Virus genome (UHGV): UHGV-0088977
Direction: 5' to 3' (one strand)
Source: a virus
Length of the DNA stretch: 10,919 bases
Positions 1 to 9,990 of this stretch are shown here, in pieces. Every line of letters begins with the position of its first letter. Position 1 is the first letter of the stretch. The position numbers were made by a program, and so were the translations under genes. The notes below the pieces were generated by a model. It had not been told where the DNA came from, ran no database searches, and was given only the letters and a program-made list of their open reading frames with translations.

Positions 1-50
1 AGTCATCGGGCATTATCTGAACATAAAACACTATCAATAAGTTAGAGTCA

Positions 51-599
51 TTACCGGAGGGGTAAATTATGATTTTGCTTTTCTTCATCATAATTTTTAA
101 TTTCCATCGATAACAAGAAGCTGGGGTTGTTATTTATTTTTTGGGATATTTCTGTAAGGTTAGACCAACAGTTTGTTTCGGATTTTATTATCTTTTCGCA
201 AATAGATGCAAGCGTAGGGTAATCTTCTACGTCTAATGGTCGAATATGCATAACTCTGTTTCTTATTAGAACGAGAGAGTCCAAATCTTTGGTAATGGAT
301 TTTATGAATTTATATATGTGATCGGGAATTTCCTTTCCATTGGAATTTATGATTTGGTAAGTATCTCCAAGGTCAAAATATTCTATTAAATCAATTGATT
401 CTATACCATCCATCACAGTGCCGAGGTCTTTTTCTAGTCTTCTTTTAGCTTTTTCTAAAAGTTCGTTTGGTAGTTTTATTTCTTTATCTTCTGGCTTCAA
501 GATGTAACTTACAACTATTGAACGGAGGTCTTCCTCTAAAGCGCAAAGAAGAGCATAAACTGTCATACGGGTAAGGTTAAATGCCATGAAACTCTCCAT
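51..599 (-). CDS. Hypothetical cargo protein, 182 aa (178 aa if started at the second ATG, 587), with a HEPN-like R-N-x3-H motif (LIRNRVMH); candidate RNase-type abortive-infection/toxin effector
   Basis: Long ORF in very AT-rich DNA, where chance ORFs of this length are unlikely; motif RNRVMH near residues 113-118 fits the HEPN Rx4-6H signature with the typical polar residue after Arg; GGAGAG Shine-Dalgarno lies upstream of the second ATG (MAFNL); sits immediately distal to the integrase. Confidence 0.55.
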   Translation of the reverse strand: MESFMAFNLTRMTVYALLCALEEDLRSIVVSYILKPEDKEIKLPNELLEKAKRRLEKDLGTVMDGIESIDLIEYFDLGDTYQIINSNGKEIPDHIYKFIKSITKDLDSLVLIRNRVMHIRPLDVEDYPTLASICEKIIKSETNCWSNLTEISQKINNNPSFLLSMEIKNYDEEKQNHNLPLR

Positions 600-630
600 G
601 AGGTTGTGGTTTTTTTGTTAAGGAGGCATT

Positions 631-732
631 ATGGCATATAACAAATTATTTACGAGAGTCGATGAAATAAAATGTGATAAAAGTACGATACTAGGCTTTC
701 ACCAAGGGAATGGTTTACTGATGAAACAGTAA
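631..732 (+). CDS. Possible small ORF (33 aa, MAYNKLFTRVDEIKCDKSTILGFHQGNGLLMKQ) divergent from the cargo gene
   Basis: Consensus Shine-Dalgarno TAAGGAGG at 619-626, 4 nt before the ATG at 631; in-frame TAA at 730-732. Too short to judge by composition, and the SD could instead belong to the upstream region of the minus-strand gene. Confidence 0.2.
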   Translation: MAYNKLFTRVDEIKCDKSTILGFHQGNGLLMKQ

Positions 733-905
733 ATCTATAAAAATATTGTTTTTATACTCTACATTGATTCGGCATTAACTCTGCAATTTGTGGGGTAATT
801 AATGTCAATTATGAAAAAAACATCCAATCATTATACTAAGTAGACTTATTAATTACATTGTGTGCTTTTTACATGCGTAACTAATATTTGCTCATTCCCA
901 CAATT

Positions 906-2033
906 TTAACATGTTATCTTCATCCAGTTTTTCCCACGATCATCATCATAACGATCAGTTTGCTGTTGTGTTTTATGCCCAAGTAGCTTCCTAGTATCTA
1001 TCCCTTGTTCTTTGTACAGGCGTTCAGATAAAGACCTTTGCTCATGGAATGTGGCAGGTGAGCCATCCCCCCAGTCAATCCCTGCTAAATCCCGTGCTTT
1101 ACTAAAATTCATCGTCAATGTATTGGATTTAACCTGTGCACCACGTTTTGCCTGTGAGGTTGAACGGAAAAAATGCACTAAGTATGGACTGACTGCATAA
1201 TCACGGCAGCGGACTACTACATCGCGTAAACTCCAGCTAATCGCGTTGAGACGAAGGGAAAGCGGGATTGCGATTTTGCTCCCGGTCTTTTCCTGAATAA
1301 CATGGAGATGATCATCCCAAATATCACTAAATTTCATACGCGAGATATCACCTAACCTCTGGCCAGTAACCAGTGCTAACAGCATGGCATTCCCCATATA
1401 ACGATGACTGGCATCTGCGATATCAAAAATTTTTTGCCATTCTTCAAGACTTAACCGTTGTCGGGTAATTTTTCTTCTGGGTTGCTTCGTTGCAAGAGCA
1501 GGGTTATACCCTGGTGGAACTTCGCCGTAATGCTGTGCTTCTTTAAACACATCGATCAATACAGACCTTACGACCTGGGCCATTCTAGGCTGTCCAGCAG
1601 AGATATACTCATCAAGTAATTGTGCTATATCTCTGACATCAACGGCTGATATCAACTTCAGTCCTGCTCGTTCCCTGAGCAAGGATACTGGTTTGGCTTT
1701 CTGTTTATAAGTGTTGAGCTTTATATCGCCACTTTTCAGTCTGTCTTCCTGGATTGCTTGATAGCGATCTAACCAGGTTGACGTTGTGATTGCTTTTCCT
1801 TTGCTGGTTGCGATCCTGTCACTGATAGCTAGAATCTGGCGGGTTCTTTGCTCAGCTAGGCGTGTATTGGCCTCAGTGGCAATAGCAATGGCTTCAGCTT
1901 CGTTTGTGCCCAAAGAATGAAACTTCCCGGTCACTGGATGCTTATATCGCCAATAAACTTTATTTACTTTTCTGCTATAGAGCGGATACAAGTTCGGGAC
2001 TGAAACATTATTCTTACGTGGTCTGGCTGCCAT
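906..2033 (-). CDS. intE: Lambda-family tyrosine recombinase / phage integrase (375 aa), e14 IntE-like
   Basis: Translation aligns by eye to lambda Int: N-terminal arm-binding region (PNLY...), catalytic region LVTGQRLGDI (Arg), HEQRSLSERLY (His/Arg) and LLGHKTQQQTDRYDDDRG (Tyr nucleophile); 20-nt overlap with the upstream excisionase ORF. The intE symbol is from memory of e14 and is not verified. Confidence 0.93.
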   Translation of the reverse strand: MAARPRKNNVSVPNLYPLYSRKVNKVYWRYKHPVTGKFHSLGTNEAEAIAIATEANTRLAEQRTRQILAISDRIATSKGKAITTSTWLDRYQAIQEDRLKSGDIKLNTYKQKAKPVSLLRERAGLKLISAVDVRDIAQLLDEYISAGQPRMAQVVRSVLIDVFKEAQHYGEVPPGYNPALATKQPRRKITRQRLSLEEWQKIFDIADASHRYMGNAMLLALVTGQRLGDISRMKFSDIWDDHLHVIQEKTGSKIAIPLSLRLNAISWSLRDVVVRCRDYAVSPYLVHFFRSTSQAKRGAQVKSNTLTMNFSKARDLAGIDWGDGSPATFHEQRSLSERLYKEQGIDTRKLLGHKTQQQTDRYDDDRGKNWMKITC

Positions 2034-2259
2034 TACTTAAAATCCTTTGTAGAATAATAGAATCACTTTTCTTAATGACAGGAGTAACTAATTCTCCAAC
2101 TAACTCTGCGTCCTCACGTACTCGCCATAGTCGACCTTGTTTCATTGCCGGTGGACAAAATAAATTCTGCTTAGCATAACGACGCAATGTGGACACACTT
2201 GGAGGGTTACTCCTAAATTTTTCCGCAGCCCATTCCTCAAGTGTCAGCATTTGAAGCAT
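2014..2259 (-). CDS. xisE: Excisionase (lambda Xis-like, 81 aa)
   Basis: MLTLEEWAAEKF...PSVSTLRRYAK...FCPPAMKQGRLW resembles lambda Xis (YLTLQEWNARQ...SLETVRRWVRE...FPPPVKDGRE); GAGG Shine-Dalgarno 8 nt before the ATG at 2259; overlaps the int start, as is typical for xis-int. Confidence 0.85.
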   Translation of the reverse strand: MLQMLTLEEWAAEKFRSNPPSVSTLRRYAKQNLFCPPAMKQGRLWRVREDAELVGELVTPVIKKSDSIILQRILSNGSQTT

Positions 2260-2313
2260 TTTGATAACCTCATTTCTTTTGCTACAAAACTATTTCACTA
2301 GTTAATTTCGCAG

Positions 2314-2850
2314 TTAGGATTGCTTATGCATCTTATGCAGCTCTTTAAAACGTTCCATAAACATCCCGTAGGCATGGCCCGGTGCCAGTGGAATCACGTT
2401 GAACATCTCTGTTGCCTGGATACCTTCCAGTACAGGCCAGAAAGAGCCATCATCAAGCCCGAGATCGCGGCGTTCGGTTGCCAGCATGATGAGATCGGCA
2501 TATTTCACAGGCGTGCTCATAACCGGGGGTAACCCGTATTTCTCACGGATTATGGTGTCTATTTTTTCTTCCATCCGTTTATAGTCAGGAAGAAGGCGTT
2601 TCAGTGGTGCGGGGATGTCCTGGCAATACGCTTCTGTTGCATCATGCATTAACGCTTCAAAAGCAAATTCCTGCGGTACCAGCTGGCTGCAAAGCACCGC
2701 ATGTTGGGCGACGCTGTAGAAGTGCGAAAGATGACCGGCAAAGCGACAGATATTTGAAAGGGAAACCGCGATATCGTTAATATCGATGTCGTCTTTATTT
2801 ATCCTGTCATAATAAAAATGCTTCCCAGAAAAAGTTTTAATAAATGACAT
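2314..2850 (-). CDS. yfdR: HD-domain phosphohydrolase, YfdR-like (putative 5'-deoxynucleotidase), 178 aa from the internal ATG
   Basis: H...HD signature (FAGHLSHFYSVAQHA and ALMHDATEAY); GAGGAG Shine-Dalgarno 6 nt upstream of the ATG at 2850, which gives the 178-aa product MSFIKTF..., whereas the track ORF extends to 2913 without an SD. Name is from memory of the CPS-53 yfdR gene. Confidence 0.8.
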   Translation of the reverse strand: MSFIKTFSGKHFYYDRINKDDIDINDIAVSLSNICRFAGHLSHFYSVAQHAVLCSQLVPQEFAFEALMHDATEAYCQDIPAPLKRLLPDYKRMEEKIDTIIREKYGLPPVMSTPVKYADLIMLATERRDLGLDDGSFWPVLEGIQATEMFNVIPLAPGHAYGMFMERFKELHKMHKQS

Positions 2851-2944
2851 TTTGTTCTCCTCGTTATATGCGCTGCACCGCGCTGAATTTGGGTTAAAGA
2901 AAACCCTCGCCATCAGGCGATTATTGAGTCAATTACGTTTCCAT

Positions 2945-2978: not shown

Positions 2979-3803
2979 TCAGGCGGTGAAAGTACCAATA
3001 AAGGTTTCTACTTTGCTGTCCTTGAATTTCTCAACAAGCAGATCACGAAATTCGTTAGCCATTTCTTCCTGCACTGCTTCCAGCTGAATAATGCGCAGAA
3101 CCAGTACAGGACGATCGCCAGTGATAATGCTGAGGCGTAATTTAAATGGACGTTCTTTCAGGCCTTCAAACGGAACGCATTTAAATTCAAATGCCACTGG
3201 CATAATGTCTTTGGTCTTCGCTTCGACAGACTCCATCAGGGAGCGTTTGCCGCTGAAGTCATTATCTTCAAAATCAGCGGTCTGGTTTGCTTCAATCGTG
3301 ATTTTACGGACAGCCGCAGCCGCTTTTGTTGCCTGAATAGCGTCACCATTAGCATCAAAGCCCACAAGGTAGTCGGCCCAGTCTTCAATCCATTCTGCCA
3401 GTGACTTCTGGGAATTACGCTCGCCATTAACAGACAACAGAGCAGAGAACGGTGCTGTCTTTTTCAGTTTGAGAGTGGCGGTGTTATCGGCGTGACCTGG
3501 TTCATCAATAGTACCCAGGTTAAGAACACTGACGGCACGCATATTATCAGCATCGATAAAGCAGCGGGTGCCTTCATCTGCAAGATCTTTAGAATAACAG
3601 GTAAAGTCATCGATGCTGGCAGTGGAAAGCGCACCACGGAAACGGAAGCGATTTAAATTAAATTTTTCCAGATCATGAATGCGAAAATTCTCAGGTAATG
3701 CCACTGCGTCGGCACCAATCTTACTGATAATTTCATTAACACCCTGAGCAGAAATAAGGGCATGGATTTGATTAATTGCGGTTGCGTCTAAGTTCTGAGA
3801 CAT
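2979..3803 (-). CDS. yfdQ: YfdQ-like protein (DUF2303 family), 274 aa
   Basis: Full-length ORF with a GAGGA Shine-Dalgarno 7 nt upstream of the ATG at 3803; size and sequence match my recollection of E. coli CPS-53 YfdQ; same strand and tight spacing with the yfdP-like and yfdR-like genes. Confidence 0.8.
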
Positions 3804-4231: not shown

Positions 4232-4699
4232 TTTGCTGCTCCTCATCATATCGACCCTGCAAGGCCGATTAGTTTCTCCACAAAACAGAGAAGAACACCT
4301 GCGGTGGCAGCCGCCCGGATGGATTGGGTTATGAGCCCGTCGTCCGGTGATGCTCTTCTCTGTTTTGTAAAAAGGACGGTACCAGCCGGAAGCAAGAGTA
4401 CAAACTGGTACCGCCAAGACTACACACAGCATAAAGTTGTGGTGCCGGGTGCCTCCCGGTGCCTGGCGAAGGTTGCACACCAGGCGGGTGGGTATCCACA
4501 GAAGGTCGACTGTCAGCCTCAACCTTAACCCGCGTGCGCTGAGCCGCATTCACCACAACGCTAAGGATTCTCTCTGGTTGAAAATACTTAGCTGTTATGT
4601 GCCTGCTTTTAGCCACATCAGGCGAGGTGGACCTGGTTATTCCCCAACAACAAGGATTCGGTTAATCTGGTTATCCCCAACAACGCAAAAGGAAAAGAA
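4232..4699. promoter_or_regulatory. GC-rich structured non-coding island between the yfdP-like gene and the divergent 144-aa gene; probable divergent promoter and 5'-UTR region, possible ncRNA
   Basis: No convincing coding frame (the overlapping ORFs translate to P/G/S/R-rich low-complexity peptides); imperfect 17-bp inverted repeat 4281-4297/4351-4367 with a perfect 14-bp core; hairpin CCGGG-TGCCT-CCCGG near 4446-4460; GGTGCC direct repeat; CCTGG...CCAGG stem near 4462-4483. Confidence 0.4.
4633..4684 (+). repeat. Tandem direct repeat CTGGTTAT(T)CCCCAACAAC (copies at 4633-4651 and 4667-4684, 34-bp period), with a degenerate third copy at 4551-4580
   Basis: Seen directly; the second copy ends 15 nt before the ATG of the 144-aa gene and abuts its Shine-Dalgarno (AAAAGGA, 4687-4693). 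Confidence 0.6.
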
Positions 4700-5134
4700 A
4701 TGTCCGGTAATATCTATACGCTGTACAAATCCCACTGTGAAAATGTTGGAAAGTATCGGGGCATTGAAATCAGTGGGGTAGTGTCATCAGTCGAAATAAG
4801 CAAAGTTGAATCAAGGGCAACATTACTTACTCTTCTGGACCTTGTCTTACATGAGCACCGGAAGAAATTCGGCACTCCCTATAATCAGTTGAATGGGAAA
4901 AAAGCTCTGGTTCACCTTATTCTGATGAAGCATCACTGGATGCCAAAACAGATTAATGAGATGAAATTTGATGAACTTCTTCTTTCAATTCAGGATGAAC
5001 TCACGCTTGATAAAATAAGCGTAACCGCCCAGAAATTTTTAGATTATCGAGACTGGAGATCACAAATTCATCACTTTGATGATTTTGACGAAAATGAATG
5101 GGATCCTAATTTGTCTGCACAATATCTAAAGTAA
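4700..5134 (+). CDS. Hypothetical protein, 144 aa, AT-rich orphan (moron-like) gene of unknown function
   Basis: Uninterrupted 144-codon ORF in AT-rich DNA; Shine-Dalgarno AAGGA 6 nt upstream of the ATG; opposite orientation to the flanking leftward operon; plus-strand intrinsic terminator downstream at 5372-5397. No recognisable motif by eye. Confidence 0.7.
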   Translation: MSGNIYTLYKSHCENVGKYRGIEISGVVSSVEISKVESRATLLTLLDLVLHEHRKKFGTPYNQLNGKKALVHLILMKHHWMPKQINEMKFDELLLSIQDELTLDKISVTAQKFLDYRDWRSQIHHFDDFDENEWDPNLSAQYLK

Positions 5135-5312
5135 CATCCTGTGATAAAACCGTGATTTCCTGATCCAGTTTTTTTAAGGAGTCTATTGTTTCCTGTCGAT
5201 AAGACAGCACTTCACGAAGCTGGTTTATAGCTGCCAGCTTCTTTGCCATCCACTCGTAAATTTCCTCATTTGTGTATCCGGGTGCGACGATTTTTGGTTC
5301 TGTTTTGTGCAT
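5106..5312 (-). CDS. Hypothetical small protein, 68 aa (MHKTEPKIVAPGYTNEEIYEWMAKK...), hydrophilic and probably helical
   Basis: GAGGAGG Shine-Dalgarno 6 nt upstream of the ATG at 5312; the track's start at 5327 is a TTG that forms part of this SD; the 3' end overlaps the 3' end of the 144-aa gene by 29 nt in convergent orientation. Confidence 0.55.
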   Translation of the reverse strand: MHKTEPKIVAPGYTNEEIYEWMAKKLAAINQLREVLSYRQETIDSLKKLDQEITVLSQDVTLDIVQTN

Positions 5313-5371
5313 TTCACACCTCCTCAAGTTATCAGTTACTTGTTGATGGGGACCAGATTGTTAAAGAGCTA

Positions 5372-5397
5372 AGCGTCCTGTAGGGCGCTTTTTTGTT
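5372..5397 (+). terminator. Rho-independent terminator (stem AGCGTCC/GGGCGCT, loop TGTA, then a T-tract)
   Basis: 7-bp stem including one G-U pair, followed by TTTTT on the plus strand; the complementary strand would carry a C-A mismatch and a poor U-tract, so it is probably plus-strand specific. Confidence 0.6.
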
Positions 5398-5559
5398 GCT
5401 AACGAATCATCCTGGACTTCATATGCCCCAGGCGGCTACTTCGTGGGCGTCCTGCCTGTTCGTTATCTTTGATATAAAATCTAACTTAACTTAGTTATTA
5501 TGGCAAGAGAAAACACCAAACTTTTCTTAGTTCGGTGCCTTAGTTAGAGAAGAGAGGTC

Positions 5560-6186
5560 TTAGAGTTCGTATTGAACTCCTTTGACTACACCAATGATAA
5601 GGCAATTACCATTGATAGGGATGTTGGGATACCGAGGATTTAATGGCACTAAAAACTTTTGAGGGCCATCGATGACTAATTTTTTTACTGTAGCTTCGTT
5701 TGTTCCATCAAGTCGAGCGATGACTATTTTTCCATGACGAGGTTCTGCATCTGGATCTACAATCACTGTTGCGCCTTCTGGTATTGTTGGGAGGCCATTA
5801 GGGTTAGTCATGGAGTCACCTTTAACCTCTAATGCAAATGAGTTATCACCAATCTTTAATGATGTATCTACCCACTTGTCCACTTCACTAAACACTTCTG
5901 CTGCCCTGCACTCAGTAAACTGCCCAGCCTGAACCCACGATATTACAGGAACTCTGCGCATGTTTGTGACGAGTTTGCCTTCAAACTCAGCACCATAAAG
6001 AATGTAATCTATTGACGTATTGAAGAACTTCGCTAATTTCGAAAGTGCCTCCCCACCAGGGGTATTGATGTCTTTCTCCCAGTACCCCACAGCAACGTCG
6101 CTTACTCCACAAAATTTACCCAATTCTTTCTGGGACGTTCCGGTAACTCTTCTCAGAGCTTTTATACGCTGACCAACCGTTTCCAT
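5560..6186 (-). CDS. CI-like prophage repressor, XRE-type HTH fused to an S24 (LexA-like) autopeptidase domain, 208 aa
   Basis: N-terminal HTH (QKELGKFCGVSDVAVGYWEKD); C-terminal GDSM serine motif and VKKL lysine motif as in LexA/lambda CI; divergent from a Cro-like gene. Resembles e14 CohE by position, not verified. Confidence 0.9.
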   Translation of the reverse strand: METVGQRIKALRRVTGTSQKELGKFCGVSDVAVGYWEKDINTPGGEALSKLAKFFNTSIDYILYGAEFEGKLVTNMRRVPVISWVQAGQFTECRAAEVFSEVDKWVDTSLKIGDNSFALEVKGDSMTNPNGLPTIPEGATVIVDPDAEPRHGKIVIARLDGTNEATVKKLVIDGPQKFLVPLNPRYPNIPINGNCLIIGVVKGVQYEL

Positions 6187-6283
6187 AGGAGCACCATTTC
6201 TTGAATTGCTAAGTAATCTTAGTTTTTATTGACCAAAGATAGATTTGTAATTAGCATCTAATAAAACTTAGTTTGGAGGGCGT
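6187..6283. promoter_or_regulatory. Divergent repressor/cro promoter-operator region (PRM/PR-like)
   Basis: 97-bp AT-rich spacer between the divergent repressor and cro starts; near-palindromic motifs ATCTTAGTT (6216-6224) and AACTTAGTT (6265-6273) and inverted repeat CTAAGTAATCTTAG (6208-6221); candidate -35 TTGACC at 6229-6234; GGAGGG Shine-Dalgarno before the cro ATG. Confidence 0.6.
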
Positions 6284-6484
6284 ATGACAACTGACGATAT
6301 CGAAAGCTACTTCGGCAGTATTGAGAAAGTTGCTGCTTTTTTCGGCATAACAACTGAAGCCGTTTATCAGTGGCGAAACCGTCCGGGCCAGTTAATTCCA
6401 AAAGGACGTGCAGCAGAAGCTGCATATAGAACTTGCGGACGGTTGCCATTTAAACCTGAGCTTTATGAAAAATCTAATGGATAA
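6284..6484 (+). CDS. Cro-like small HTH regulator (66 aa)
   Basis: Small basic protein with an HTH-like segment (VAAFFGITTEAVYQWRNRPGQ); strong Shine-Dalgarno; divergent from the repressor; same length as the e14 Cro-like gene as I recall it. Confidence 0.8.
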   Translation: MTTDDIESYFGSIEKVAAFFGITTEAVYQWRNRPGQLIPKGRAAEAAYRTCGRLPFKPELYEKSNG

Positions 6485-7073
6485 ATCGATTAACAGAAAC
6501 CACAGAACGATGAGGTTAACCGTGGGTAAGCATCACTGGAAAGTAGAAAAACAGCCTGAGTGGTACGTGAAAGCTGTCAGAAAAACTATCGCAGCGTTGC
6601 CGGGTGGTTACGCTGAAGCAGCTGACTGGCTGGATGTAACAGAAAACGCATTATTTAACCGCCTTCGTGCCGATGGCGATCAGATTTTCCCGCTGGGATG
6701 GGCAATGATTTTGCAACGTGCTGGTGGAACTCACTTCATTGCTGACGCTGTGGCGCAGTCTGCAAATGGCGTCTTTGTGTCTCTTCCTGACGTCGAGGAT
6801 GTGGACAACGCCGATATTAACCAGCGCCTGCTGGAAGTCATTGAACAGATTGGCAGTTATTCCAGACAGATTCGTTCGGCAATCGAAGACGGTGTGGTGG
6901 AACCGCATGAGAAGACAGCAATTAACGACGAGCTGTATCTCTCAATTTCGAAGCTGCAGGAGCATGCAGCACTGGTCTACAAAATCTTTTGCATTTCAGA
7001 AAGTAATGACGCCCGCGAGTGTGCAGCTCCGGGCGCCGTGGCGTGTCGTGACTGTGGAGAAACTAACGCATGA
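6465..7073 (+). CDS. Early regulatory protein, YmfL/YdaT-like by position and size (about 200 aa); start uncertain (6465 or 6477)
   Basis: ORF immediately after and overlapping the cro stop, suggesting translational coupling; no clear Shine-Dalgarno; ATGA overlap with the next gene. Assignment rests on synteny with e14 as I recall it. Confidence 0.6.
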
Positions 7074-7408
7074 ACAGTTTAACAACACACTACCGTCGCT
7101 CGCAACTGATTGCGCTTCCTGTACCGGGTGGAAAAGCGAAGGTGGAGTATTGCTATGCAGTTAATGTACCAGGTGACAGGGAAATTGTAACCCACAGCTT
7201 TGCTGAGTGGGCTGTGGGTGATTTCAACCGGCAGAAGGAGACAGTCCTTTGCGACAAGTTAACCGCTGGTTCAAAGATCACTACGGAGTGCCCGTCAGAG
7301 TCATTCGTTGGGAGCCGGAAACACAACGGGTTATCTACCTCCGCGAAGGCTATGAGCATGAGTGCTTCAGCCCGCTCGAACAGTTTCGTCGTAAATTCAG
7401 GGAAATAG
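7070..7408 (+). CDS. ymfM: YmfM-like protein (112 aa)
   Basis: ATGA stop/start overlap with the preceding gene; length equals that of e14 YmfM as I recall it; sequence identity not verified. Confidence 0.55.
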
Positions 7409-7417
7409 AGGTCGGTC

Positions 7418-7972
7418 ATGAGCACTAAATTAACCGGCTATGTATGGGATGGTTGCGCTGCATCAGGCATGAAATTATCCAGCGTGGCAATTATGGCCCG
7501 CCTGGCTGATTTCAGTAATGACGAAGGTGTGTGCTGGCCATCAATTGAAACCATTGCCCGTCAGATTGGCGCGGGGATGAGTACCGTCAGGACGGCTATC
7601 GCACGGCTGGAAGCAGAAGGCTGGTTAACGCGTAAGGCGCGTCGCCAGGGTACGGGGGCAGGCTGTATTGCGCGTGCTGACTTTGAAGCCCGACAACGGG
7701 CGGCGCGGACGGATGAAACCACCTATGTGGTGCAGGGCTGGCGACAGGGTAACGGTACGCTGTGGCAGCCCAACCAGCGGGTGATTGTCTTTGATCCGGT
7801 CTGTGGTTTCGACAATACCGAACTGCTTGTTTCGGAAGTCACGTTTACTCAGGACCAGAACGGCACCCTGACGGAAATCCGTGTCGGCCCGCCTGATGCT
7901 TATCTGCCTGAACCCGAAGCCCCCGGCGCGCGGAAAAAGAAAAAAGCCAGAGTACAGGAGGACCCGTTCTGA
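7418..7972 (+). CDS. Apparently chimeric ORF (184 aa): N-terminal HTH/replication-initiator-like domain joined to a C-terminal fragment resembling the end of a Mu gp44-type baseplate hub protein; probable deletion-fusion
   Basis: N-terminus (SSVAIMARLADFSNDEGVCWPSIETIARQIGAGMSTVRTAIARLEAEGWL) looks like a phage O/HTH protein; the composition changes around residue 95, and the C-terminus runs straight into the baseplate V gene with TGATG stop/start coupling. Confidence 0.6.
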   Translation: MSTKLTGYVWDGCAASGMKLSSVAIMARLADFSNDEGVCWPSIETIARQIGAGMSTVRTAIARLEAEGWLTRKARRQGTGAGCIARADFEARQRAARTDETTYVVQGWRQGNGTLWQPNQRVIVFDPVCGFDNTELLVSEVTFTQDQNGTLTEIRVGPPDAYLPEPEAPGARKKKKARVQEDPF

Positions 7973-8520
7973 TGAGGACGATTGAAGCCATGCAGCGACA
8001 ACTCCTCGGCCTGATTGGGCGGGCCGTGGTGAAAAGTATCAGTGCCGCCACGAAATGTCAGACCGTGGATGTGTCCCTGATTGCCGGTGAACCCAAAGCC
8101 GGGGTTGAACATCTTGAACCCTACGGTTTTACCGCAAGGGCAAACAGCGGTGCGGAAGCGGTGGTGTTGTTTCCGGATGGCGACCGTTCTCATGCGGTGG
8201 TTGTTACGGTGTCGGACCGGCGCTACCGCCTGAAAGGGCTGCAGACGGGTGAGGTGGCTGTCTATGACGATCAGGGGCAGTCCGTGACGCTGACCCGGGA
8301 GGGGATCGTGGTGGACGGTGCAGGTAAAACGATCACGTTTCGCAATGCACCTGAAGCACGTTTTGAAATGGACCTGGAAGTGACAGGACAGGTGAAAGAC
8401 CTGTGCGACTCCGGCGGCACCACCATGTCAGCGATGCGGCTTGCCTATAACGGGCATCGTCACAGAGAGAACGGTCAGGGCAGTAACACCGACAAACCTG
8501 ATAAAGCGATGGAGGCATGA
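7972..8520 (+). CDS. Baseplate assembly protein V / spike-like (Mu gp45-like), 182 aa
   Basis: Position in the baseplate block; C-terminal NGHRH (HxH) motif as found at the apex of phage spike proteins; overlapping stop/start with flanking genes. Confidence 0.75.
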   Translation: MRTIEAMQRQLLGLIGRAVVKSISAATKCQTVDVSLIAGEPKAGVEHLEPYGFTARANSGAEAVVLFPDGDRSHAVVVTVSDRRYRLKGLQTGEVAVYDDQGQSVTLTREGIVVDGAGKTITFRNAPEARFEMDLEVTGQVKDLCDSGGTTMSAMRLAYNGHRHRENGQGSNTDKPDKAMEA

Positions 8521-8945
8521 TGGAACTGTGGCTGACGGTGAACGGTAAACGCACCTGCGCCAGCGCACCGCTGGATCCGCTGACCCGCGCCGTGGTGATT
8601 TCCCTGTTTACCTGGCGGCGGGCGGAGCCTGATGACAACGCCGACGTCCCGATGGGATGGTGGGGGGATACCTGGCCTGCGGTACAGAATGACCGTTACG
8701 GCTCCCGACTGTGGCTGCTTCAGCGCAGCAAACTGACCAATCAGCTGGTGCAGACGGTAAGGGGGTATATCCGCGAATGCCTGCAATGGATGATTGATGA
8801 CGGCGTGGTGTCCCGTATTGATCTGGATATCCGCCGCACCGGGATTAATGAACTGGGTAACAGTATCACTCTCTGGCGTCGTGACGGACCGGTAATGATT
8901 TCTTTTGATGATCTGTGGAGTGCGATAACGCATGGCGGACAGTGA
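8517..8945 (+). CDS. Phage GP46-family baseplate protein (Mu gp46-like), 142 aa
   Basis: Sits between the V-like and J-like genes; contains the GWWGD motif I recall as typical of GP46-family proteins; ATGATG overlap with the upstream gene. Confidence 0.75.
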   Translation: MMELWLTVNGKRTCASAPLDPLTRAVVISLFTWRRAEPDDNADVPMGWWGDTWPAVQNDRYGSRLWLLQRSKLTNQLVQTVRGYIRECLQWMIDDGVVSRIDLDIRRTGINELGNSITLWRRDGPVMISFDDLWSAITHGGQ

Positions 8946-9990
8946 ATTTCAGCGCCCGACGCTGGCAGAAAATATCAGTATGCTCCGTAACGATTTATTC
9001 GCCAGGCTGGACGTCAGCGACACGCTCCGGCGCATGGATGAAGACGTGCGGGCAAAGGTGTATGCGGCAGCGCTGCATACGGTTTACGGGTACATCGATT
9101 ATCTGGCAATGAATATGCTGCCTGACCTGTGCGATGAGTCCTGGCTGGCGCGACATGCTGCGATGAAACGGTGTCCGCGCAAGGGGGCCACGGCTGCCAG
9201 CGGGTATATGCGCTGGGAAGGTGTCAGCGATGGCCTGAAGGTGACCGCCGGGAGTGTTATTCAGCGCGATGACCTGGTTCAGTACACGGCAACTGCCGAT
9301 GCAACCAGCTCCGGTGGTGTCCTGCGTGTGCCGATCACTTGCTCAACTACAGGCGCGGTCGGTAACGCTGACGACGGTACGGCATTAATCCTGGTCACGC
9401 CGGTGAATGGTCTGCCGTCTTCCGGTGTGGCTGACACCCTGACAGGCGGATTTGATACTGAAGAGCTGGAAACGTGGCGCGCCCGCGTCATTGAGCGGTA
9501 TTACTGGACGCCTCAGGGCGGGGCTGACGGGGACTATGTCGTCTGGGCTAAAGAAGTGCCCGGCATTACCCGCGCATGGACATACCGACACTGGATGGGA
9601 ACGGGGACTGTCGGTGTGATGATTGCCAGCAGTGACCTGATTAATCCCATTCCGGAAGAGTCAACGGAAACGGCGGCAAGACAACATATCGAGCCACTGG
9701 CCCCGGTGGCAGGCTCTGATTTGTATGTATTCAGGCCGGTGGCGCATAAAGTGGATTTTCATATCCGCGTGACGCCGGACACACCGGAAATACGGGCTGC
9801 CATCACCGCCGAGTTGCGTTCGTTCCTGCTGCGTGATGGTTATCCGCAGGGAGAACTGAAGGTGTCGCGTATCAGTGAAGCGATTTCCGGTGCGAACGGG
9901 GAATACAGCCATCAGTTGCTTGCACCGGCAGACAATATCTCCATTGCAAAAAATGAACTGGCGGTACTGGGGACGATTTCATGGACGTGA
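8932..9990 (+). CDS. Baseplate J-like protein (Mu gp47-like), 352 aa
   Basis: Size and position in the baseplate block; overlapping starts and stops with its neighbours; resembles e14 JayE-type proteins by context. Confidence 0.8.

What the first reader, a model, noticed from the sequence alone, without database searches (positions are those of the whole stretch)
51..599. Lone HEPN-like ORF in the integrase-proximal cargo slot
The 182-aa ORF sits immediately distal to the integrase in a strongly AT-rich block, whose composition differs from the rest of the prophage. In e14 of E. coli K-12, as I recall it, this slot holds the Lit exclusion protease, so it is a known place for anti-phage cargo. 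The protein carries R-N-x3-H (LIRNRVMH), which fits the HEPN Rx4-6H catalytic signature with the typical polar residue after Arg. HEPN domains are RNases recurrent in abortive-infection and toxin systems. No partner gene such as an MNT antitoxin is visible within the window, so it may be a single-gene system, or a partner may lie beyond position 1.
Basis: partly seen in the sequence, partly recalled or inferred. Interest (0 to 1): 0.7.

Follow-up and report, generated by a model that had tools for sequence, protein, structure and literature searches.

The report
IS1-truncated HEPN-STAND immune gene fragment
The "lone HEPN ORF" is the first 177 codons of a 775-codon prophage-borne immune-receptor-like gene (HEPN-like RNase domain, NB-ARC ATPase, TPR sensor) cut off by an IS1 insertion, so it is a broken gene and not a self-contained defence system.

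The parts
1..55 (.). Terminal 55 bp of an IS1 (IS1A-type) element. The outermost base of its inverted repeat is at 55, and the element continues to the left of the window.
   Evidence: 100% identical to annotated IS1A/IS1 transposase elements in 191 records, and present in 4,955 of 5,426 E. coli genomes. The same junction is seen in 12 independent contigs, one running 140 nt into IS1.
51..53 (-). TAA stop codon of the ORF, supplied by IS1 sequence. The preceding Arg codon (54-56) straddles the junction.
   Evidence: Read directly from the sequence. The intact gene reads on as ...LPLPDFDETG.
56..64 (.). 9-bp IS1 target site GGAGGGGTA (TACCCCTCC on the coding strand), duplicated on the far side of the IS1.
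   Evidence: P0285 begins with translated IS1 left end and then LPLPDFDETG. Only a 9-bp duplication, in frame 0, reproduces it.
56..587 (-). Codons 1-177 of a 775-codon HEPN-like/NB-ARC/TPR gene (WP_000885267 = P0014). This covers the whole N-terminal HEPN-like domain and part of the linker.
246..263 (-).
   Evidence: Invariant in 85 homologues and in 38 N-domains at 22-42% identity. RNR[VI]xHxR is found in 138 of 147 of the best representatives.
588..599 (-). Four extra codons (MESF) of the mechanical ORF. This stretch is probably 5' UTR and carries a GGAG Shine-Dalgarno at 594-597 for the ATG at 587.
   Evidence: Upstream sequence ...CATGGAGAGTTTC ATG. Homologues and the PGAP annotation start at MAFNL.
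600..905 (.). AT-rich (about 0.31 GC) spacer between the gene and intE. It presumably holds the promoter.
   Evidence: Composition. The simple sigma-70 scan found no consensus site here, so the promoter is not located.
906..2259 (-). intE integrase (906-2033) and xisE excisionase (2014-2259) of an e14-like prophage. They define the int-distal cargo slot.
   Evidence: Pfam Arm-DNA-bind_1 at 2e-37, Phage_integrase at 5e-17, Exc at 1.5e-12. RefSeq annotation intE/xisE.

Best explanation
SHOWN: Window 56..587 (minus strand) is the 5' 532 nt of a 2,328-nt single-gene cargo of an e14-like prophage, located between icd/attL and intE. An IS1 element inserted after codon 177 with a 9-bp target duplication. 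It separates the N-terminal HEPN-like domain from the NB-ARC/STAND NTPase and the TPR region, and it supplies a stop codon two codons later. The 178-aa ORF is therefore the front piece of an interrupted gene, not an evolved stand-alone gene.

INFERRED for the intact protein: it works like an Avs/NLR-type receptor. The C-terminal TPR region would bind a phage-derived trigger. The NB-ARC module, whose Walker A, Walker B and GSKIIITSR motifs are invariant, would then oligomerise. This would bring the N-terminal HEPN domains together so that paired R-x4-H motifs form an RNase site, and RNA cleavage would stop the infected cell (abortive infection).

INFERRED for the window copy: without the NTPase and sensor, the fragment lacks both trigger sensing and the oligomerisation scaffold, so the locus is a non-functional pseudogene. 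The insertion is recent, because the fragment is still 100% identical to the intact allele.
For: IS1 and truncation: (the match starts at 56, and 1-55 is IS1A at 100%). One search shows the identical junction in 12 contigs. Searches show the far-side fragment P0285 with translated IS1 end and the 9-bp TSD.

Intact architecture: one search gives the 775-aa translation. One search gives NB-ARC at 35.8 bits against a gathering score of 23.5, plus TPR_19, TPR_14 and TPR_2. One search is the AF2 model with the order helical N-domain, alpha/beta NTPase, winged helix, TPR. (Foldseek) finds STAND-TPR 6mfv, SAMD9, ZAR1, Sr35, NRC4 and CED-4.

Domain never free. Of 101 long representatives, 97 have a Walker A just downstream, and every short hit ends in the PDFDETG linker or the NTPase.

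Defence context: (variable slot with Lit, PD-Lambda-5-type and NsnA-like genes). (single gene in a Klebsiella P2-like prophage between tail-fibre and tail genes, and next to integrases and an RT/SLATT module in Vibrio and Pseudomonas). (phrog_24039).

Conservation pattern: (NTPase 0.70-0.74 identity, effector and sensor 0.44-0.49).

Kind of system: PMC13581612 describes effector-STAND-TPR receptors in which mutating or deleting the effector abolishes cell death.
Against: No experiment exists for this family in the literature I could search. Foldseek against the PDB found nothing significant for the N-domain (best E 0.5). A profile search of PDB sequences found nothing. The Pfam HEPN_Swt1 match is below the gathering score (14.4 against 27.5 bits for this protein). 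No PADLOC Avs model matched the intact protein. That P0285 and the 178-aa fragment come from the same genomes is inferred from neighbouring accession series, not read from one contig. An isolated effector domain can be active: the Avs9 AlbA_2 domain alone killed E. coli (PMC12680541). Loss of function of the fragment is therefore an inference. The TPR region (about 235 aa) is short compared with characterised Avs sensors.
Confidence: 0.85

Rival explanations
1. One reading: a self-contained single-gene HEPN RNase defence or toxin system, possibly with an MNT-like antitoxin beyond position 1.
For: HEPN-like fold and invariant R-x4-H motif. Located in a defence-cargo slot. The N-domain matches PADLOC candidate PDC-M34B, a model of about 150-190 positions, so small relatives may exist.
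Against: The stop codon lies inside IS1. The DNA is identical to codons 1-177 of a 775-codon gene. No MNT or other partner is seen in any intact locus. Every listed homologue is the N-terminus of a STAND protein or a fragment of one.
Confidence: 0.03
2. Domain liberation. The IS1 insertion left a functional product: either a free HEPN domain acting as a low-level RNase or toxin, or two fragments (HEPN, and NTPase-TPR expressed from an IS1 outward promoter or an internal start) that still cooperate. The allele would then be kept by selection.
For: The truncated allele is found in many assemblies and samples (34 index blocks for the 178-aa form and 9 contigs for the 182-aa form). The native start and Shine-Dalgarno are intact. 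The cut falls exactly in the inter-domain linker. The isolated Avs9 effector domain is toxic on its own (PMC12680541).
Against: Wide occurrence can equally reflect one clone sampled often. The fragment is 100% identical to the intact allele, so there has been no time for selection to show. HEPN RNases generally need a dimeric or oligomeric composite site (general knowledge of the superfamily). All 13 copies in complete genomes are intact. No free form of the domain exists in nature among the hits inspected.
Confidence: 0.07
3. The intact protein is a STAND-type signalling or regulatory protein (MalT/AfsR-like) and not an immune receptor, and its N-domain is a non-catalytic HEPN-like helical module.
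Against: No HTH or other DNA-binding domain is found. The gene always sits on prophages or integrase-flanked islands and in a slot that otherwise holds Lit or PD-Lambda-5-type genes. It is patchy and rare in E. coli (13 of 5,426 genomes). The R, N and H of the motif are invariant to 22% identity, which is unusual for a purely structural module.
Confidence: 0.08

Closest known systems
Avs / bacterial NLR-like antiviral STAND NTPases (Avs1-24, bNACHT; PMC13581612; bioRxiv 10.1101/2022.07.19.500537)
   Same: Single polypeptide with an N-terminal effector, a central STAND NTPase and a C-terminal TPR-like region. Carried on prophages and islands. HEPN RNases are already listed among STAND effector types. 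Nearest solved folds are STAND/NB-ARC proteins.
   Different: No PADLOC Avs model matches. The NTPase scores best as NB-ARC (AP-ATPase type). At 775 aa with about 235 aa of TPR it is smaller than most characterised Avs proteins, and below the 400-aa or longer sensor set analysed in PMC13581612. No phage trigger or phenotype is known.
Avs5 (AVAST type 5; Sir2-nSTAND3-TPR; PMC12931631)
   Same: Similar size class and three-part layout. SAMD9, which groups structurally with the Avs5 sensor, is among the top Foldseek hits. There is a weak nSTAND3 hit (E 0.003). An 'AVS_V variant' is reported spreading in K. pneumoniae P2 prophages (PMC13586616), the same niche as homologue P0016.
   Different: The effector is HEPN-like, not Sir2. 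There is no detectable sequence match to Avs5 models or to PDB Avs5 chains. Whether the reported 'AVS_V variant' is this family could not be tested.
AbiF/AbiD (Pfam Abi_2) and Swt1-like HEPN domains
   Different: All hits are below Pfam gathering scores. Here the domain is fused to a STAND NTPase instead of being a stand-alone Abi protein regulated by an RNA or a partner.
MNT-HEPN toxin-antitoxin pairs
   Different: No MNT gene lies next to any intact copy. Regulation is expected to come from the fused NTPase and sensor, not from an antitoxin.
Lit of e14 (E. coli K-12)
   Same: It occupies the same icd-intE cargo slot of an e14-type prophage. Both are presumed abortive-infection functions.
   Different: The proteins are unrelated. 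Lit is a peptidase that cleaves EF-Tu (established knowledge). Nothing or 12 links this protein to it.
PADLOC candidate system PDC-M34 (gene B)
   Same: The N-domain matches model PDLC04592 at E 1.2e-10 over residues 11-131.
   Different: PDC-M34 is a two-gene candidate. No M34A match was found in the intact protein. No published description was found.

Membership tests
HEPN superfamily | Compact alpha-helical bundle fold shared with solved HEPN domains | tested here: met
HEPN superfamily | R-x4-6-H motif with a polar residue after Arg, conserved among homologues | tested here: met
   RNRVMH is at window ORF residues 113-118. R, N, R and H are invariant in 85 sequences and in 38 N-domains at 22-42% identity. 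The motif is present in 138 of 147 representatives.
HEPN superfamily | Significant match to a curated HEPN family model | tested here: inconclusive
   HEPN_Swt1 scores 14.4 bits against a cut-off of 27.5 for this protein. However, 30 of 38 diverse members hit HEPN_Swt1 (best E 1.6e-5), 10 hit Abi_2 and 3 hit HEPN_RiboL-PSP, and no non-HEPN family recurs. The profile search against PDB sequences gave no hits.
HEPN superfamily | Metal-independent RNase activity dependent on the R and H residues | not testable with these tools
   This needs biochemistry.
MNT-HEPN toxin-antitoxin | Adjacent minimal nucleotidyltransferase (MNT) antitoxin gene | tested here: not met
   No such gene is next to intact copies in E. 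coli, Klebsiella, Vibrio or Pseudomonas. In the window, the neighbour across position 1 is IS1.
STAND NTPase (NB-ARC / AP-ATPase type) - intact gene | NTPase domain with Walker A, Walker B and NB-ARC-type motifs, above the curated threshold | tested here: met
   NB-ARC scores 35.8 bits against a gathering score of 23.5. GEGGVGKT, LFIDN and GSKIIITSR are essentially invariant in 76 homologues. Foldseek hits are 6mfv, ZAR1, Sr35, NRC4 and CED-4. None of this is present in the window itself, because it lies beyond the IS1.
Avs / NLR-like antiviral STAND | Three-part layout: N-terminal effector, STAND NTPase, C-terminal repeat sensor, in one gene | tested here: met
   for the intact allele. The window copy keeps only the effector part.
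Avs / NLR-like antiviral STAND | Location in defence islands or mobile-element cargo hotspots | tested here: met
   The e14-type icd-intE slot alternates with Lit, PD-Lambda-5-type and NsnA-like genes. Other contexts are a Klebsiella P2-like prophage tail-fibre region and integrase plus RT/SLATT neighbours.
Avs / NLR-like antiviral STAND | Sequence membership in a named Avs family (Avs1-5 models) | tested here: not met
   A PADLOC scan of the intact protein returned only PDC-M34B and a weak mad8 hit. Avs6-24 models were not available to test.
Avs / NLR-like antiviral STAND | Anti-phage phenotype, or cell death dependent on both trigger and effector | not testable with these tools
   No report was found for this family.
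Avs5 (AVAST type 5) | Sir2-like NADase effector | tested here: not met
   There is no SIR2 match, and the N-domain is HEPN-like.
IS1 insertion | IS1 terminal inverted repeat abutting the target, with a 9-bp target-site duplication | tested here: met
   100% match to the IS1A end. The far-side junction was reconstructed from P0285, and only a 9-bp duplication fits.

The most novel reading that the evidence does not exclude
IS-mediated domain liberation. The IS1 cut, placed exactly in the linker, released the HEPN effector of an NLR-like receptor as a free 178-aa protein with its native promoter and ribosome-binding site. This fragment, alone or together with a separately expressed NTPase-TPR remnant, would retain a selectable activity (RNase toxin, immunity modulator or dominant regulator). 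That would explain why the allele is seen in many assemblies. It would be a natural example of how stand-alone HEPN genes can arise from STAND receptors.
Probability: 0.05. Interest if true: 0.6.

Novelty: new member of a known kind. Interest (0 to 1): 0.25.

Why it matters
For the window itself the result is corrective. A tempting "orphan HEPN defence gene" is an insertion-sequence artefact of gene structure, so anyone cloning 51..599 would be testing a fragment.

The useful by-product is the intact gene, WP_000885267 (phrog_24039, function unknown). It is a compact 775-aa HEPN-NB-ARC-TPR protein found across Gammaproteobacteria in prophage cargo slots. No named defence-system model in the libraries I could use covers it. 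It is a ready candidate for the trigger screens now used for Avs proteins, and it would add an RNase-effector, NB-ARC-type member to the bacterial NLR-like repertoire. It also adds another cargo type to the e14 icd-intE hotspot.

Tried and rejected
- **Stand-alone HEPN or MNT-HEPN TA:** rejected, because of the IS1 junction and because all homologues are fused to a STAND NTPase.
- **Lit-like protease:** no similarity.
- **Avs1-5 membership:** no PADLOC hit.
- **Avs5 specifically:** no Sir2, and no sequence link to PDB chains.
- **N-domain profile against PDB sequences:** nothing at E up to 10.
- **Foldseek of the N-domain against the PDB:** nothing significant.
- **AFDB50 fold search:** library unavailable.
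- **Literature:** searches for PDC-M34 and WP_000885267 gave zero papers. Brenes & Laub 2025 is not held. Supplements of PMC13581612 and PMC13586616 are not held. I therefore could not check whether the family already has an Avs number, or whether it is the 'AVS_V variant' of Klebsiella P2 prophages.
- **tblastn of the intact protein against 50,697 phage records:** no match at 1e-10.
- **Promoter scan of 1-1000:** no consensus site upstream of the gene.
- **The window's exact IS1 junction:** found in none of the 5,426 complete E. coli genomes. It was found only in draft and metagenome contigs that break at the IS1.

Full report
**1. The observation.** The mechanical ORF list gives 51..599 on the minus strand, 182 aa, with LIRNRVMH at residues 111-118. 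It lies next to a lambda-type integrase (906..2033) and excisionase. GC content is 0.335 for the gene part and 0.305 for the spacer up to int. This compares with 0.44-0.46 for the early region and 0.58 for the tail region.

**2. The ORF is a truncated gene.**
- Megablast of window 1-2300 against 5,426 complete E. coli genomes found 13 genomes at 99.9-100% identity (10 of them at 100%), but only from position 56.
- Window 1-55 instead matches thousands of IS1 copies, 100% to IS1A.
- In those 13 genomes the gene under the match is a 2,328-nt "tetratricopeptide repeat protein" (WP_000885267) between icd and intE.
- Window 56..587 equals its first 532 nt exactly.
- The window ORF ends ...NHNLPL-R-stop, whereas the intact protein reads ...NHNLPLPDFDETGLIGRQ....
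- The Arg codon straddles the junction, and the TAA at 51-53 is IS1 sequence.
- Twelve independent contigs carrying exactly this product all show the same junction and stop inside IS1, as short-read assemblies do at repeats. One runs 140 nt into the element.

**3. The other side of the IS1.** The 90% cluster of the intact protein contains P0285, a 618-aa "partial" protein. Its NCBI accessions (MEI1613412, MEI1627643, MEI1651137) fall in the same series as those of the 178-aa fragment (MEI1612801, MEI1627906, MEI1650468). P0285 starts STSKTPSYTKSVSWQHH and then LPLPDFDETG.... Joining the reverse-complemented IS1 left end to the rest of the gene reproduces that N-terminus only with a 9-bp duplication, in frame 0. 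The event is therefore a simple IS1 insertion with the usual 9-bp target duplication (window 56-64, GGAGGGGTA), and the 3' 598 codons are retained. That both pieces come from the same genomes is inferred from the accession series, not read from one contig.

**4. The start codon.** All homologues begin MAFNL/MS..., RefSeq starts there, and GGAG lies 6-9 nt upstream of the ATG at 587. The product is 178 aa: 177 native residues plus one Arg.

**5. The intact protein.**
- Pfam finds NB-ARC (35.8 bits, above the gathering score of 23.5) at residues 190-329 and several TPR families between about 555 and 725.
- The Walker A GEGGVGKT, the Walker B-like LFIDN and an NB-ARC-type GSKIIITSR are essentially invariant in 76 homologues.
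- The AF2 model (pLDDT 77) shows a helical N-domain, an alpha/beta NTPase, helical and winged-helix modules, and a TPR solenoid.
- Its nearest solved folds are an archaeal STAND-TPR protein (6mfv), SAMD9, the plant resistosomes ZAR1, Sr35 and NRC4, and CED-4.
- The IS1 sits in the low-confidence linker between the N-domain and the NTPase.

**6. Is the N-domain HEPN?**
- For: the AF2 model of the fragment is confident (pLDDT 82, pTM 0.80) and all-helical.
- For: this protein's own Pfam match to HEPN_Swt1 is sub-threshold (14.4 bits). But 30 of 38 diverse family members hit HEPN_Swt1 (best E 1.6e-5), 10 hit Abi_2 and 3 hit RiboL-PSP-HEPN, and no unrelated family recurs.
- For: R-N-R-x-x-H-x-R-P is invariant in 85 sequences and in 38 N-domains at 22-42% identity, together with E18, D20, R22, D72 and D122.
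- Against: Foldseek found nothing significant, and a profile search of PDB sequences found nothing.
- Conclusion: I accept a Swt1/Abi_2-like HEPN domain with a probably catalytic motif, at roughly 0.8 confidence.

**7. The domain is never free.** An exhaustive profile search of 1.84 billion representatives found 809 proteins. In the best 150, the domain always starts at or near residue 1 of proteins of 770-1200 aa. Of 101 long representatives, 97 have a Walker A within residues 150-330. Every short hit ends in the PDFDETGF linker or the NTPase, so it is a fragment. The "lone" state in the window is due to the IS1.

**8. Biology of the family.** More than 1,200 homologues (E below 1e-10) of about 770-790 aa occur in Dickeya, Klebsiella, Yersinia, Cronobacter, Morganella, Aeromonas, Vibrio, Shewanella and Pseudomonas. 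PHROGs holds the family as phrog_24039, function unknown.

| Organism | Neighbourhood of the homologue |
|---|---|
| Klebsiella (86% identical) | Inside a P2-like prophage, between the tail-fibre gene and the tail genes |
| Vibrio | Between integrases, beside a reverse-transcriptase/SLATT module |
| Pseudomonas | Next to an island integrase |

It is always a single gene with no conserved partner. In E. coli it is rare (13 of 5,426 complete genomes, all intact) and always sits in the icd-intE slot.

The slot holds different cargo in different strains:
- K-12: ymfD, ymfE and lit.
- Strain GF31: a PD-Lambda-5-type methylase (E 1.9e-121) with an ATPase.
- Strain S1-JOR-02-A: a DUF262/NsnA-like protein.
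- Strain NIST0056: unknown genes.

Within the family the NTPase is the most conserved part (0.70-0.74 identity to the E. coli protein). The effector and the TPR region are more variable (0.44-0.49).

**9. Mechanism.** Shown: the architecture, the motif conservation, the mobile and defence context, and the IS1 disruption. Inferred by analogy with Avs/NLR-like STAND proteins (PMC13581612) and with HEPN RNases in general: TPR-mediated recognition of a phage product leads to NTP-dependent oligomerisation. This juxtaposes the HEPN domains, and RNA cleavage then causes abortive infection. The window copy lacks sensor and scaffold and is most simply a recent pseudogene. One caution is that an isolated Avs9 effector domain is toxic by itself (PMC12680541), so a residual activity of the fragment cannot be excluded by computation.

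**10. Comparison with known systems.** The intact gene works like an Avs protein but matched no PADLOC Avs model. It differs from Avs5 in its effector (PMC12931631). PMC13586616 reports an "AVS_V variant" spreading in K. pneumoniae P2 prophages. That may be the Klebsiella homologue found here, but I could not test it. The N-domain matches the unpublished PADLOC candidate PDC-M34B. I found no experimental report on this family.

**11. Verdict.** The finding as stated, a lone HEPN system, is not supported. The feature is an IS1-truncated fragment of an uncharacterised but conventionally built HEPN-STAND-TPR gene. Interest in the window feature is low. The intact family is a reasonable candidate for a new Avs-type family with an RNase effector.

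Noticed in passing
window 7418-7972 (+), joint near 7652: This ORF is a chimera. Residues 1-79 match replication-initiation O-like/primosomal proteins and residues 77-182 match the middle of a baseplate hub (phrog_177, positions 327-432 of 623). Homology to the fuller RM10466 prophage stops at 7652, and GC jumps from about 0.46 to 0.58. This is a deletion joint that removed the replication, lysis and head genes, so the prophage is defective, like e14.
   Followed up: partly
window 4631-6496: The immunity region has no counterpart in the otherwise 97.6-99.4% identical RM10466 prophage, so it is a swapped module. It comprises a cI-like repressor (5560-6186), a cro-like gene (6284-6484), a low-GC 144-aa ORF (4700-5134, phrog_5286, unknown) and a 73-aa ORF (5106-5327, phrog_1744, unknown). 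The two unknown ORFs beside the repressor sit where lambdoid phages often carry exclusion genes. Pfam and PADLOC gave no hits for the 144-aa ORF (the 73-aa ORF was scanned against PHROGs only).
   Followed up: partly
E. coli draft assemblies (P0097, P0281, P0296, P0297, P0301, P0302, P0303): The same STAND gene is broken in other ways elsewhere. There are frameshifts at the A-runs CAAAAAATAAATAA (about codon 150) and ATTAAAAATTATG (about codon 165), giving a 150-152-aa piece plus a 615-aa piece. There is also a truncation near residue 443. The A-run cases could be real slippage or homopolymer sequencing errors. All 13 copies in complete RefSeq genomes are intact.
   Followed up: partly
L017-L020 (Klebsiella), gene at 7001-9328: An 86%-identical homologue is inserted between the tail-fibre gene and the gpU/tape-measure/tube/sheath block of a P2-like prophage. 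It is recorded in 255 index blocks, so it is common in Klebsiella. It may be the 'AVS_V variant' reported in K. pneumoniae P2 prophages (PMC13586616).
   Followed up: partly
L004 1277-3916 (E. coli GF31) and L002 5607-6659 (E. coli S1-JOR-02-A): The same icd-intE slot carries a PD-Lambda-5-type methylase with an ATPase in one strain and a DUF262/NsnA-like protein in another. Strain NIST0056 (L003) has three unannotated proteins there, with no PADLOC hit.
   Followed up: partly
window 2314-2913 (-) and 2979-3803 (-): A YfbR-like HD-domain hydrolase (sub-threshold Pfam hit) and a DUF2303/YfdQ protein follow xis. They are conserved early genes of this prophage type, and neither matched PADLOC.
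   Followed up: no
full-length model, residues 111-116 of WP_000885267: In the full-length AF2 model the catalytic-motif segment drops below pLDDT 50. In the isolated N-domain model the same segment is confident (block mean about 82). This may reflect a flexible or context-dependent active-site loop.
   Followed up: no
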